A stretch of DNA of 64,000 bases, taken from contig NC_044034.1 of assembly GCF_901765095.1 (NCBI RefSeq), forward strand, positions 62,370,339 through 62,434,338, read 5' to 3'. The DNA is from Microcaecilia unicolor. Taxonomy: Eukaryota. Position 1 is the first letter of the stretch; each line of letters starts with the position of its first letter. Made by a program: the position numbers. Shown here piece by piece: positions 60,101-63,100 of this stretch.

Positions 60101-63100
60101 ACACAGAAAGTCACATGAAATTACAATGGATTATTGTTACATTAACAGTTAGATAACCCCTTATATAACTTATATGATAGTGGAAGTATTCTGAACTATA
60201 GAGAAACATTTCTTTGCTTTTACATTAATAGATATGCATATAAAATAAGTTTTACCTTTCCGGTTGAGAAGATGATGGCTGCGTGCCATGAGAATACAGC
60301 GTTGTTTCACTTCAGTTATTTCCTGTTGGTCCTTTATAACCCAACCTTCTCTTTCCTTCTAATGCTGCAGCTGTTCTGTTTGTCATCATTTAGACATATC
60401 ATTTCAGTCACTGACTAGTATGTATGTTTTATGCCGTATCATTGGAAGTTCTTGATGTAAGAATCACATGTTTTAATTTGTTCTTTTTCCCCTTTCACCT
60501 GTTTAGCCACAAAAGCTTCCTGCCATTGCATTCGGGTTTATTTTATTTACTATGTCCCTTTTCTGAGTGTATATTTATGGGTATGAGCTTGTCATCTTTA
60601 CACCACGATTCTGGTGTCCTGTTTCAAAATTTATTGATTTATATGCTTCTCTTATATTTAATATGTCTTTGTTAATATACATTTTCTTGCCTTTTGTTGA
60701 AATCGGTGTTTCCTTTCACTGGCTTGTTGGATGGAAAATTCTATTTTCCATTGCTGCATGACAAGTGATGTCTTTGGCATTTTTAGTTCTGGCTAATGTG
60801 TTCCAACTAATGACTTTTTTGTGACTGTGCCTTCCCCGAAGAGCTTACATTTGTTTTGTTTTGCCTTGGAATATTTCGTCTTTCTCTCTATTTTTCTACC
60901 ACTTCTATAGTAATTTTCAGGGGCTTTTCCCTGGAACATACTATACTTTCTTATATACCAGTGTCACGCTATAACTATTGGGTTTGATATCGATGCCTGG
61001 GGCTTACATCCATCGAAGGTGGATGACGGTATCGCAATTATTAGATTTTAAGCAGAACCCCATTCTATTTTTGGAATGGCCTGCATTCACTGAATTGGAC
61101 TATTGCCCATATAGAAGTTACCGGTACAGATGCGCGCTGGGGATATACAGAGACGTCTAAAATCCTTTAGTTGCAAATTTAGACAGGTTGACTGGGGCCC
61201 TAAATTTTTGTTCTCTTCTAGATGAATATTTAAGCATCTATTGGGGGTTAGCGACAAAATGGCGAGTGTATTCCCATATATGGCGAGTGTATTCCCATAT
61301 TTCTAACCGGCGAAAACCAATTAGATCGCTGCCCTTTAATTTTAGAGAACTTATTTTCGCTGTTCGCTAAAATCTTTTTTTTGGAGTTTTTGCTTCCCCC
61401 ACTTTTGGGGTTTTCAATATGGCGAGTGTTATCCCATATCCAAATTCATGGCGAGTGTTATCCCATGTGCGATCCCAGGCGAGTGTAGTCCCATCACATG
61501 GCGAGTGTTATCCCATGTCAAAATTCATGGCGAGTGTTATCCCATGGTCAATTTCTATAGAAGCATACTCTGGAGGGCAGTATTTTTAGAGTAGGTTATA
61601 TATAGTAAGTGACACAACTGACTCCTGCACTATTCTCATGTTCATGGCTATCATTTCTTTGTTAATATAACCTGCGGCAAAAGCATTGAGCTTTCCGCCA
61701 ATTAGTAATTTATGTTTTAGGTTCCGCCAATGGGACGCTCTTGAAGACGCGTGAGTATAAGTGTTTTTGTTATACGCATGATGCATGTTCTTTTGTTTAG
61801 ATAATTTTCCTGTGCATGGTTTTGTTTAGTTGCCCCTGTTATAGACCTCAGCATTTTGATTTGAACCATCTCACTTGTAGATATTGCATTATATTGAATA
61901 CACTCTTCTATGAGTTCCTATGTGAATTGTCTTCCCCCTATTTCTGATCCCACTATGCCCACTTCCTCTTGGAAAGAGTCCTTAATTTCTTTCCCGCTGA
62001 TAGAAAAGAACTTACCCGGTTATGTCAAACCTGGCATACCGCTTGGTCCGCTAAGGATCAAGGACTGGAATGGCCATCAAGGGGCTCATTTGATCAGGGC
62101 AAACTCCAAGCCTTGGTCTGCTACAATGAGTCCAACAAAACGGGAAAATCTAGGGATAAACATTTAGCTGCCATTAACAAATTCATACTTATTGCACGAA
62201 ACCAGCACGATAGAGCTCTGGGTAAGTCAGATACCGATCAAGCCCCCTATCAAGATCCTGTAGCACCTACAGCTCCACCACCTTATGATGCTGCTACTGC
62301 TGCAAGTACTACCAAGTTGTTACCATGTGCAGTGGGATATACCCCAATACCCCCAGGATATTGTGATAAACCTGACACAAATCCTCAGCTACAGATTTCT
62401 CAGGGATCTCAGACAGTGACACCCCCGCTGCCTGCAGTATCTCCTGCTCCTATGATATTTGACCCACCTACTACCGTGCACATCGCCGGTGTTGTTGATC
62501 TATCTCTTCCCTCATCACAAAAAAACTCAATTCCAATATCTCAGGGGTCAGTACAAACTCAGACGCCTTTAACCCCTTCAACAATCCCAGTGGCCCAACC
62601 AGTAGCCCTGATTTCGGCCCAATTACCCACTGTTACCTCTGCTCCAACGATGCAAGCAACAACCCAGACGCTAACCCCACCACCGCCTCATGTATATCGT
62701 ACTCTTGGAGGCTATGAGATGGAGATACCCCCTCCCATTATTGAGCAATATCCTTGTGTCCCGAACCCATCAGTTCCGGCCACCGTCCAGTACCCTGCTA
62801 TCAGTCAAATTGACGTAGCTGCCCAGACCTCCACCTACCCTAGCCTAGGATCCGGGTTGACTTCACACATGACCACCCAAACGACTACCTACCCACATAT
62901 GGGACACACAACTCAGACATCACCTCCACCACTACCTTTGGACTCTTCTGTCCAAACTGGTCCCTTGCCAGCTGAATCCCTACAGTCTATCCTGTCTCAA
63001 TTACGACAGATGGGTTTCATTCCATGTAGTCCTGCTACACAGACACGGGCTATTTGTCAGGAACTCTATGATCGGGGTTTCATTAAACCACCCCCTGCTC

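What the first reader, a model, noticed from the sequence alone, without database searches (positions are those of the whole stretch)
61253..61770. Seven direct 19-bp repeats plus CCAAT/TATA boxes upstream of the long ORF: enhancer or iteron-like architecture
The element ATGGCGAGTGTTATCCCAT recurs seven times in the same orientation within 300 bp, with 2-10 bp spacers. Two ccgccaat boxes and TATA-like elements follow within 230 bp, then the ORFs. This layout resembles a viral or LTR U3 enhancer, or the iterons of a replication origin, more than a random minisatellite, because the repeats are conserved while the spacers vary. I found no canonical tRNA-complementary PBS downstream, so an LTR origin is not supported.
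Basis: seen in the sequence. Interest (0 to 1): 0.6.

Follow-up and report, generated by a model that had tools for sequence, protein, structure and literature searches.

The report
Repeat cluster upstream of retroviral gag
The repeated 19-base motif is real and lies just upstream of the gag gene of an endogenous retrovirus of the amphibian gamma/epsilon type, so it is most likely a virus-derived enhancer-like cluster of binding sites and not a replication origin; this is an ordinary kind of feature, although the proviral layout around it is odd.

Summary
The observation largely holds. There are four exact copies of ATGGCGAGTGTTATCCCAT, two copies with 2 mismatches and one with 4, all on the + strand within 287 bp (0.01 matches expected by chance). 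They form two clusters separated by 120 bp, not one array. Two TTCCGCCAAT boxes and a TATAAG box follow.

The "long ORF" is a retroviral gag. Its two ends match Gag and Gag-Pol proteins of caecilian and Xenopus class I ERVs. Those relatives have 4-bp target duplications, a PBS 2 nt after the LTR, and leaders of about 950 nt.

However, an LTR end followed by a Trp-like PBS sits at 55937-55962, 6 kb upstream, and everything between it and gag is ORF-less.

The 19-mers are identical where their homologous spacers have diverged (0/57 against 10/30 differences), which argues for constraint. Six copies carry the YY1 core GCCAT on the bottom strand. Each copy can also fold into a small hairpin.

My best reading is a homotypic enhancer-type site cluster feeding a gag-proximal CCAAT/TATA promoter inside a provirus (confidence about 0.45). 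Rivals are an RNA hairpin array, a neutral duplication, and a rearranged LTR. Iterons are rejected. No other copy could be found, so function and proviral boundaries remain inferred.

The parts
61259..61277 (+). 19-mer copy 1 (variant ATGGCGAGTGTATTCCCAT). Its bottom strand reads CTCGCCATTTTG, the best YY1-type match among the copies.
61280..61298 (+). 19-mer copy 2 (same variant). With copy 1 it forms a perfect 21-bp x2 tandem.
61299..61418 (+). 120-bp gap between the two clusters. It holds no degenerate copies, a CCAATTAG at 61317, a T8 run and a CCCCCAC/GGGG inverted repeat.
61419..61437 (+). 19-mer copy 3 (exact)
61448..61466 (+). 19-mer copy 4 (exact)
61476..61494 (+). 19-mer copy 5, degenerate (CAGGCGAGTGTAGTCCCAT, 4 mismatches; GCCAT core lost)
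61498..61516 (+). 19-mer copy 6 (exact). The block 61498-61546 is a 96% duplicate of 61419-61467.
61527..61545 (+). 19-mer copy 7 (exact)
61693..61702 (+). TTCCGCCAAT box 1 (CCAAT box candidate)
61722..61731 (+). TTCCGCCAAT box 2, 29 bp after box 1
61756..61761 (+). TATAAG (TATA box candidate). A start site near 61787 is inferred, not shown.
61816..61947 (+). ATG-initiated 43-codon ORF in the gag frame, ended by TGA at 61945-61947 directly before the gag ORF
61955..61957 (+). ATG one base out of frame with the gag ORF. It is a possible ancestral gag start if a 1-nt indel followed it.
   Evidence: comparison with L013 gag start
61948..64000 (+). gag ORF (partial, runs off the window). It has an MA-like N-terminus with EWPSRGSF, a PPPY motif, a Pro/Thr/Gln-rich linker of about 480 aa, and the start of the capsid-like domain.
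55937..55962 (+). LTR end (ACA) + tt + Trp-like PBS TGGTGACCCCCGATCGCTGAT
   Evidence: compare L015
54893..55939 (+). Putative 5' LTR (TATAAAA 55398-55404, AATAAA 55574-55579). The 5' boundary is a guess and the 3' LTR is outside the window.
   Evidence: inference
56182..56187 (+). GTGAGT, candidate leader splice donor about 220 nt after the PBS. Relatives have GTGAGC or GTAAGT at a similar distance.
   Evidence: inference
55963..61258 (+). 5.3 kb ORF-less, T- and C-rich sequence between the PBS and the repeat cluster. Its nature (long leader or unrecognised insertion) is unresolved.

Best explanation
The 19-mers are a lineage-specific cluster of one cis-element in the 5' non-coding part of an endogenous class I (gamma/epsilon-like, amphibian-type) retrovirus, and the 'long ORF' is its gag.

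The cluster lies 410-700 bp upstream of the gag start. It lies 210-500 bp upstream of a module of two TTCCGCCAAT boxes and a TATAAG box, which itself sits about 190 bp before gag.

The most likely mechanism is DNA-level. Seven same-orientation copies offer multiple binding sites for one sequence-specific factor and so act as a homotypic enhancer for the adjacent CCAAT/TATA promoter. That is how repeated elements work in retroviral U3 regions. The candidate factor is a YY1-type zinc-finger protein binding the GCCAT core on the bottom strand; the conserved TGTTATCCCAT half may bind a second factor.

Shown: the repeats are non-random; the ORF is gag; there is no PBS or poly(A) signal between the TATA box and gag; an LTR-end/PBS signature lies 6 kb upstream; the 19-mers are conserved relative to their homologous spacers.

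Inferred: factor binding, promoter activity, the start site near 61787, and whether the module is an internal promoter in a 6-kb leader or the remnant of a rearranged LTR.
For: The repeat is real and far above chance.

The ORF is gag. phmmer gave 9 hits, the best at E=2e-22. One hit, P0002, is a 2013-aa Gag-Pol with zf-CCHC, RVP, RVT_1, RNase_H and rve domains, and its RT is closest to MLV/XMRV RT. tblastn matched ORF aa 8-136 and 588-681 to the caecilian ERV gag at E=6e-9 and 9e-21.

The relatives are canonical proviruses with LTRs, 4-bp target duplications, a polypurine tract and a PBS 2 nt after the LTR.

Selective constraint: four copies are 100% identical, while the homologous 10-nt spacers of units 3, 6 and 7 differ at 10/30 positions against 0/57 in the 19-mers (nominal Fisher p=7.5e-6; the comparisons are not independent). 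Within the 79-bp duplication both mismatches fall in the spacer.

Promoter-like anatomy follows in the expected order and spacing.

Six of seven copies carry GCCAT on the bottom strand. Copies 1 and 3 read CTCGCCATTTTG and CTCGCCATATTG, against the functional mouse L1 Tf YY1 site GTCGCCATCTTG and the five-base core GCCAT described in PMC11602158.

The array is absent from the leaders and LTRs of the relatives, consistent with a fast-evolving regulatory duplication.
Against: No binding, transcription or start-site data exist.

No second copy of the element could be found, so association with gag rests on this one locus.

The module is not in a demonstrable LTR. No PBS follows it. There is no AATAAA or ATTAAA. 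No family-type polypurine tract precedes it, and only a chance-level 4-bp target-duplication candidate was found. It has no similarity to the putative 5' LTR at 54.9-55.9 kb.

An internal promoter just upstream of gag is not a standard retroviral feature.

YY1 needs only about 12 of the 19 conserved bases, and only 2 of 7 copies fit the extended consensus. The factor assignment is a lead taken from a motif, not a test.

This gag copy lacks an in-frame start codon, so this particular copy may not be expressed as protein.
Confidence: 0.45

Rival explanations
1. RNA-level element. The array lies in the genomic-RNA leader, downstream of the candidate splice donor at 56182 and upstream of gag. It forms a row of small stem-loops (AUGG.GA[GUGUUA]UCCCAU) that serve as repeated binding sites for the nucleocapsid domain of Gag (a packaging or dimerisation signal) or for an export or translation factor.
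For: Each unit folds into the same hairpin: -3.7 kcal/mol alone, and -6.8 kcal/mol with flanks (z=-2.7). In the 311-nt fold, four exact copies adopt this local hairpin, and the whole region has z=-2.5.

The TA/AT variant in copies 1-2 falls in the loop. The first flanking pair is C-G in three copies and T-A in two.

The position, between a leader donor and the gag ATG, is where gammaretroviral packaging signals lie (established knowledge). This holds only if the LTR/PBS at 55.9 kb belongs to this provirus.
Against: Covariation is not significant: 79 of 500 shuffles reach the observed score. The 141-nt core array does not fold better than shuffles (z=-0.89). The hairpins are weak. No Rfam family matches. 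Relatives have no comparable array. The reading depends on an unproven 6-kb leader.
Confidence: 0.15
2. Neutral local tandem duplication (a minisatellite-like accident) in non-coding proviral or intervening DNA, with no function.
For: TRF scores the core as a 29-bp period array of 4.7 copies with 72% matches, plus a perfect 21-bp x2 tandem. The block 61419-61467 is duplicated at 61498-61546 at 96% identity. The window holds many other tandem arrays. The array is unique to this locus in all data available.
Against: The 19-mers are perfectly conserved where the homologous spacers have diverged (0/57 against 10/30). Unit lengths vary (21, 29, 28, 22, 29), with the conserved core kept intact. The two clusters are separated by 120 bp of unrelated sequence. 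The position immediately upstream of CCAAT/TATA and gag is also hard to explain by accident.
Confidence: 0.2
3. The block from about 61242 to 61952 is itself an LTR, so the repeats are true U3 enhancer repeats. It would be either a solo LTR inserted at the gag start, or the provirus's own 5' LTR joined to gag by a deletion that removed R/U5, the PBS and the leader.
For: The distance from the TATA box to the end of the block (about 192 bp) equals the TATA-to-LTR-end distance in relatives: 194 bp in L015 and about 198 bp in L013. The candidate termini are TGGG...CCCA flanked by CTAT on both sides, and class I ERVs of this family make 4-bp target duplications. The repeat/CCAAT/TATA order is typical of U3.
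Against: No PBS follows the block. No poly(A) signal lies after the TATA box. No family-type polypurine tract (TTCAAGRGRGGnAA|TGTA) precedes it. Family LTRs start with TGTA and end with ACA. The 4-bp duplication candidate is at chance level. There is no similarity to the other LTR candidate.
Confidence: 0.15
4. The module is the promoter of a host-retained (domesticated) gag-derived gene that has lost its LTRs, as in chicken OVEX1. The repeats are then host-type upstream regulatory sites.
For: A TATA/CCAAT promoter lies directly upstream of an ORF open for more than 684 codons, with no PBS or LTR hallmarks adjacent. OVEX1 is a precedent for an ERV-derived gene with a TATA promoter and no identifiable LTRs (PMC2717909).
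Against: The ORF has no in-frame start codon. No orthologue or close homologue exists among 1.84 billion cluster representatives (best overall identity 33%). An LTR-end/PBS lies upstream. It is unknown whether pol follows, because the window ends.
Confidence: 0.08
5. Iterons of a replication origin of a plasmid or DNA virus.
For: Only the formal resemblance: same-orientation repeats of about 20 bp with irregular spacing, and AT-rich surroundings.
Against: The setting is a vertebrate-type chromosome (CpG observed/expected 0.49; DIRS, LINE, hAT, pogo and ERV sequences). The adjacent gene is retroviral gag, not an initiator. The paired pattern gave no match in prokaryote genomes or metagenomes, and the single 17-mer gave only single-copy hits in viral contigs, consistent with chance.
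Confidence: 0.01

Closest known systems
Repeated enhancer elements in retroviral U3 regions (HTLV-1/BLV three imperfect 21-bp Tax-responsive repeats; MLV 75-bp direct repeats). From established knowledge, not tested here.
   Same: Several same-orientation copies of an element about 20 bp long. The cores are conserved and the spacers are variable. They lie a few hundred bp upstream of the CCAAT/TATA elements of a retroviral transcription unit, upstream of gag.
   Different: Here the module is not shown to be in an LTR. There is no PBS or poly(A) signal downstream, and the only LTR-end/PBS signature is 6 kb upstream. The motif sequence is unrelated to CRE or MLV enhancer cores.
Tandem monomers with YY1 sites in the mouse LINE-1 Tf 5'UTR (PMC11602158)
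   Same: A retroelement 5' non-coding region built from tandem units, each carrying a GCCAT-core site (Tf: GTCGCCATCTTG; here CTCGCCATTTTG and CTCGCCATATTG in copies 1 and 3). In the Tf case, multiple units act synergistically as the promoter.
   Different: L1 monomers are about 200 bp and are the promoter itself. Here the units are 21-29 bp and lie upstream of a TATA box. YY1 binding is untested, and only two copies fit beyond the core.
Class I amphibian ERVs related by gag (Rhinatrema bivittatum loci L013/L014/L016; Xenopus laevis locus L015)
   Same: Homologous Gag N-terminal and capsid-like domains, a PPPY motif, and an ACA-ending LTR followed 2 nt later by a PBS. The L015 PBS resembles the one at 55942.
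   Different: The relatives have leaders of about 950 nt, no 19-mer array, and no recognisable DNA similarity. The Gag linker here is about 480 aa, much longer than in the relatives.
Foamy virus internal promoter / chicken OVEX1 (an ERV-derived gene with a TATA promoter and no LTR; PMC2717909)
   Same: Precedents for a retrovirus-derived transcription unit driven by a promoter that is not the 5' LTR U3.
   Different: The foamy virus internal promoter lies in env and drives accessory genes, not gag. OVEX1 is an old, conserved single-copy host gene. Neither has this repeat array.

Membership tests
Retroviral LTR (U3 enhancer repeats) | The sequence is duplicated at both ends of the provirus. | not testable with these tools
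   The 3' end of the provirus lies beyond position 64000. No second copy of 61.2-61.95 kb or of 54.9-55.9 kb is present in the window.
Retroviral LTR (U3 enhancer repeats) | A tRNA-complementary PBS lies within a few nt of the LTR 3' end. | tested here: not met
   No PBS with 4 or fewer mismatches to any of 31 vertebrate tRNA 3' ends (sequences recalled from memory) was found between 56000 and 62100. The control PBS-Arg of the neighbouring ERV was found. The only PBS-like site is at 55942-55962, upstream of the array.
Retroviral LTR (U3 enhancer repeats) | TG...CA termini with a target-site duplication (4 bp in this ERV family). | tested here: inconclusive
   One candidate was found (61242-61952, TGGG...CCCA, CTAT/CTAT), but a 4-bp match is at chance level. 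Family LTRs start with TGTA and end with ACA.
Retroviral LTR (U3 enhancer repeats) | A TATA box followed by a poly(A) signal in R. | tested here: not met
   TATAAG is present at 61756, but there is no AATAAA or ATTAAA between 61251 and 61950.
Class I (gamma/epsilon-like) endogenous retrovirus, gag gene | Gag homology, and the position of homologues N-terminal to PR-RT-RNaseH-IN. | tested here: met
   phmmer and tblastn hits to both ends of the ORF. P0002 is a Gag-Pol with zf-CCHC, RVP, RVT_1, RNase_H and rve domains, and its RT is closest to MLV/XMRV. Pfam itself does not recognise this Gag.
Class I (gamma/epsilon-like) endogenous retrovirus, gag gene | 5' LTR - PBS - leader - gag order. | tested here: inconclusive
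   An LTR end plus a Trp-like PBS lies at 55937-55962 (24/28 identity to L015). It is 6 kb from gag, against about 950 nt in relatives, and belonging to the same element cannot be proven.
Iterons of a replication origin | Adjacent initiator (Rep) gene, an AT-rich unwinding element, and an episomal replicon. | tested here: not met
   The adjacent gene is gag. The setting is a transposon-rich, CpG-depleted chromosome. The array is absent from the viral, prokaryote and metagenome collections.
YY1 binding-site cluster | GCCAT core with the extended consensus (CGCCATNTT / AAnATGGCG). | tested here: inconclusive
   The core is present in 6 of 7 copies on the bottom strand. The extended match is present in copies 1 and 3 only. 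The motif is as described in PMC11602158. Protein binding is not testable here.
Minisatellite / simple tandem repeat | Head-to-tail units of uniform period that diverge uniformly along the unit. | tested here: not met
   The periods are 21, 139, 29, 28, 22 and 29. Divergence is confined to the spacers (0/57 against 10/30).

The most novel reading that the evidence does not exclude
The LTR/PBS at 55.9 kb and the gag at 61.95 kb belong to one provirus with an ORF-less leader of about 6 kb. That leader carries, just upstream of gag, a second internal CCAAT/TATA promoter with its own 7-copy enhancer array. Alternatively, the seven hairpin-forming 19-mers act as a multi-copy packaging signal. Either way this would be a retroviral genome organisation not described for gamma/epsilon-type viruses.
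Probability: 0.12. Interest if true: 0.55.

Novelty: new member of a known kind. Interest (0 to 1): 0.3.

Why it matters
If the array and the CCAAT/TATA module are active, this locus shows how an amphibian-type class I ERV lineage builds its regulatory region by amplifying one short site. It might also show transcription of gag from a promoter that is not the 5' LTR. That would bear on how ERVs in very large, ERV-rich amphibian genomes are expressed or silenced; a YY1-type site cluster is a plausible handle for either. As it stands, it is a single, slightly defective copy with no expression data, so its value is mainly as a well-annotated example and as a pointer to an unusually long non-coding stretch between the PBS and gag.

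Tried and rejected
Pfam on the ORF gave no hit.

The word-indexed protein search found nothing, either with the whole ORF or with only its conserved ends. Only the exhaustive phmmer search found relatives.

Searches for other copies found nothing usable. The 17-mer in IMG/VR gave 12 single-copy hits, consistent with chance. The paired pattern gave 0 hits in metagenomes and prokaryote genomes. Protein-guided scans of metagenome and viral contigs found none.

Exact-protein look-ups meant to locate the source contig failed. Look-ups of further relatives returned only short Logan or ENA contigs with no upstream context.

DNA comparison of the LTRs and leaders of relatives with the window found only the LTR-end/PBS match. 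Alignment of the gag-start regions showed no conservation, so the shared 'GATCCCAnnATG' with L013 is not reliable.

The idea that the TGG-initial 19-mer is a PBS was rejected. Position 16 would have to pair with the invariant tRNA C61 and does not, and the best tRNA alignments are weak.

The search for LTR termini with a target duplication was inconclusive.

Hairpin covariation was not significant.

Rfam gave no relevant family.

A search for coding remnants in 55.9-61.95 kb found none by tblastn.

A literature search for the motif string returned no papers.
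Full report
**1. The observation**

Reading 60900-64000 and searching the window with the quoted 19-mer gives six matches on the + strand at 3 or fewer mismatches.
- Exact copies start at 61419, 61448, 61498 and 61527.
- Two copies with the swap TA>AT (GTATTCCCAT) start at 61259 and 61280.
- Chance expectation is 0.01, and none of 100 shuffles reaches 6.
- A seventh, degenerate copy (CAGGCGAGTGTAGTCCCAT, 4 mismatches) lies at 61476-61494.

The copies are not one evenly spaced array.
- A perfect 21-bp x2 tandem lies at 61259-61300.
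- It is followed by 120 bp with no trace of the motif, even at 8 mismatches.
- Then come five copies with periods of 29, 28, 22 and 29.
- The block 61419-61467 is duplicated at 61498-61546 with 2 differences, both in the spacer.

TTCCGCCAAT occurs twice, 29 bp apart (61693 and 61722). These are the only exact copies in the window. TATAAG is at 61756.

The long ORF is open from 61948 to the window end (684 codons) but has no in-frame ATG for 168 codons. An in-frame ATG at 61816 is cut off from it by TGA at 61945. The ATG at 61955 is one base out of frame.

**2. What the ORF is**

Pfam and the word-indexed protein search saw nothing. The exhaustive phmmer search against 1.84 billion cluster representatives gave nine hits, the best at E=2e-22.
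- P0002 is a 2013-aa Gag-Pol with a zinc knuckle, retroviral protease, RT, RNase H and integrase. Its RT is closest to MLV/XMRV RT among solved structures.
- Look-ups place P0001 and P0005 in the caecilian Rhinatrema bivittatum assembly and P0004 in Xenopus laevis.
- tblastn aligns ORF residues 8-136 (MA-like, with EWPSRGSF and PPPY) and 588-681 (start of the capsid-like domain) to the caecilian gag at E=6e-9 and 9e-21.

So the ORF is the gag of a class I (gamma/epsilon-like) amphibian-type ERV, with an unusually long Pro/Thr/Gln-rich linker.

The window itself is vertebrate-like and full of mobile elements.
- CpG observed/expected is 0.49.
- It carries DIRS-like, LINE, hAT and pogo ORFs.
- It holds a complete young ERV on the minus strand, with 696-bp LTRs at 99.86% identity.

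**3. How the relatives are built**
- L013 (caecilian) has 415-bp LTRs at 100% identity, a CAGT target duplication, a polypurine tract, an exact PBS-Tyr 2 nt after the LTR, a 945-nt leader, and its gag ATG at 10001.
- L015 (X. laevis) has 697-bp LTRs carrying CCAAT, TATATAAA and AATAAA, a GGGT target duplication, a Trp-like PBS ('ACA tt TGGTGACCCGCCGACTGTGAT'), and a 956-nt leader.
- Neither relative has a short-repeat array in its LTR or leader.

**4. Where the array sits**

I scanned with the 3' ends of 31 vertebrate tRNAs, recalled from memory. The scan recovers the PBS-Arg of the neighbouring ERV as a positive control. It finds no PBS between 56000 and 62100. There is no AATAAA or ATTAAA after the TATA box either.

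However, at 55937-55962 the sequence reads 'ACA tt TGGTGACCCCCGATCGCTGAT'. That is an LTR end plus a Trp-like PBS, matching the L015 junction at 24/28 positions.
- Upstream of it lie TATAAAA (55398) and AATAAA (55574).
- Downstream lies a GTGAGT donor candidate (56182), as in the relatives.

Between this PBS and the array lie 5.3 kb of T- and C-rich sequence.
- It has stop codons at random density in the frames examined.
- It shows no coding remnants.
- It has no internal repeats that would mark a nested element.

The simplest layout is one provirus: LTR, PBS, about 6 kb of non-coding sequence, then gag. I could not prove this, because the 3' LTR is outside the window and no other copy is available. 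Published amphibian class I ERV loci are far longer than their transcripts (16.7 and 20.4 kb loci against 9.2 and 10.4 kb transcripts; PMC12690878), so long non-coding stretches in such proviruses have precedent.

The alternative is that about 61242-61952 is itself an LTR. In its favour, the TATA-to-end distance equals that of the relatives' LTRs, and there is a CTAT/CTAT candidate target duplication. Against it, the block lacks a PBS, a poly(A) signal, a polypurine tract and the family's TGTA/ACA termini.

**5. Is the motif constrained?**

Units 3, 6 and 7 share homologous 10-nt spacers (ATCCAAATTC, GTCAAAATTC, GGTCAATTTC). These differ at 10 of 30 compared positions, while the 19-mers differ at 0 of 57 (nominal p=7.5e-6, comparisons not independent). 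Unit lengths vary, yet the core is kept.

This pattern is not what uniform decay of a minisatellite gives. It is what selection on a site gives, presumably during the replicative history of the virus lineage, since the adjacent gag is still open.

**6. Mechanism**

*DNA level.* The cluster lies 210-500 bp upstream of a TATA box that has two CCAAT boxes about 25-60 bp before it. This is the classical arrangement of a homotypic enhancer over a core promoter, and it is the arrangement of U3 repeats in HTLV, BLV and MLV (established knowledge).

On the bottom strand, six copies contain GCCAT, the five-base YY1 core. Copies 1 and 3 read CTCGCCATTTTG and CTCGCCATATTG. The functional YY1 site of mouse L1 Tf monomers is GTCGCCATCTTG, and in that system tandem monomers synergise (PMC11602158). 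This is a lead, not a test. YY1 would explain only about 12 of the 19 conserved bases.

*RNA level.* Each unit can form AUGG.GA[GUGUUA]UCCCAU (-3.7 kcal/mol; -6.8 kcal/mol with flanks, z=-2.7). The 311-nt region folds with z=-2.5. Flank pairs vary between C-G and T-A, but the covariation is not significant, and the 141-nt core does not fold better than shuffles. If the 55.9-kb LTR is the promoter, the array would lie in the leader, where packaging signals are found. That keeps a hairpin-array reading alive at a lower probability.

**7. Rejected readings**

Iterons of an origin are rejected: the context is chromosomal and retroviral, there is no initiator gene, and no such array occurs in the viral, prokaryote or metagenome collections.

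A PBS-like or tRNA-derived nature of the 19-mer is rejected. No Rfam family matches. The motif string appears in no searchable paper.

**8. Verdict**

The finding is a real, probably functional repeat cluster belonging to the regulatory or non-coding 5' region of an endogenous retrovirus. It is most likely an enhancer-type site array next to a gag-proximal CCAAT/TATA promoter.

The kind is known, while the motif and this ERV lineage are not described in anything I could search. The unusual points are the 6 kb between the PBS and gag, and a promoter-like module with no LTR hallmarks. Both are unresolved and could be settled simply by reading past the window end and by looking at other genomic copies.

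Noticed in passing
window 27713-35724 (minus strand): A complete, very young class I ERV. It has 696-bp LTRs at 99.86% identity, a GTAG target duplication, and a PBS-Arg (TGGCGACCCAGATGGGAC) abutting the 5' LTR at 35027. Its ORFs hit Gag_MA, Gag_p30, zf-CCHC, RVP and RVT_1, and there are env-like ORFs.
   Followed up: partly
window 55960-55968 versus the 19-mers: GATAACACT, overlapping the 3' end of the Trp-like PBS, is the exact complement of AGTGTTATC (loop plus 3' stem) in the four perfect 19-mers. The chance of such a 9-mer match in the 1.6 kb compared is roughly 0.1. A long-range RNA pairing is conceivable but untested.
   Followed up: no
window 61816-61957: The gag ORF lacks a start. An in-frame ATG at 61816 is separated from it by a single TGA (61945), and the ATG at 61955 is one base out of frame. 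Either one nonsense change in an N-terminally extended Gag, or a 1-nt indel, or an assembly error would explain it.
   Followed up: partly
window 62270-63700: The Gag linker between the PPPY motif and the capsid-like domain is about 480 aa of Pro/Thr/Gln-rich sequence. This is far longer than in the caecilian and Xenopus relatives (about 190 aa in P0001), and it has no homologue in any database searched.
   Followed up: no
window 55963-61250: 5.3 kb with strong T>A and C>G strand asymmetry (AT skew down to -0.49, GC skew down to -0.44 near 56.2-56.6 kb). Stop codons occur at random density in the frames examined, and there are no repeats. Its origin is unknown.
   Followed up: partly
window 61693-61731 and 61317-61324: The TTCCGCCAAT 10-mer is repeated with the same 29-bp period as the 19-mer array. 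A third CCAATTAG lies inside the 120-bp gap between the two 19-mer clusters.
   Followed up: no
L015 8488-8510 and window 55940-55962: Both Trp-like PBS sequences are 21 nt long, running from TGG to GAT. Relative to the canonical PBS-Trp TGGTGACCCCGACGTGAT, each looks like it has three single-base insertions. This may reflect a different amphibian primer tRNA or a family-specific feature.
   Followed up: no
window 42870-43430; 41003-41600; 52140-52537: Other tandem arrays: a G-rich 38/79-bp minisatellite; a 294-bp x2 repeat; and a 112-bp x3.6 repeat with an internal palindrome, lying just upstream of hAT-like ORFs (52750-54180).
   Followed up: no
window 3641-4570 (-), 49653-50345 (-), 36267-36995 (-), 11955-12557 (+), 44990-45631 (-): Other mobile-element ORFs. 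3641-4570 has a weak RVT_1 hit and 36267-36995 is a pogo DDE_1 transposase. The DIRS-like and LINE RT labels for the rest are by eye from the translations and were not tested.
   Followed up: partly
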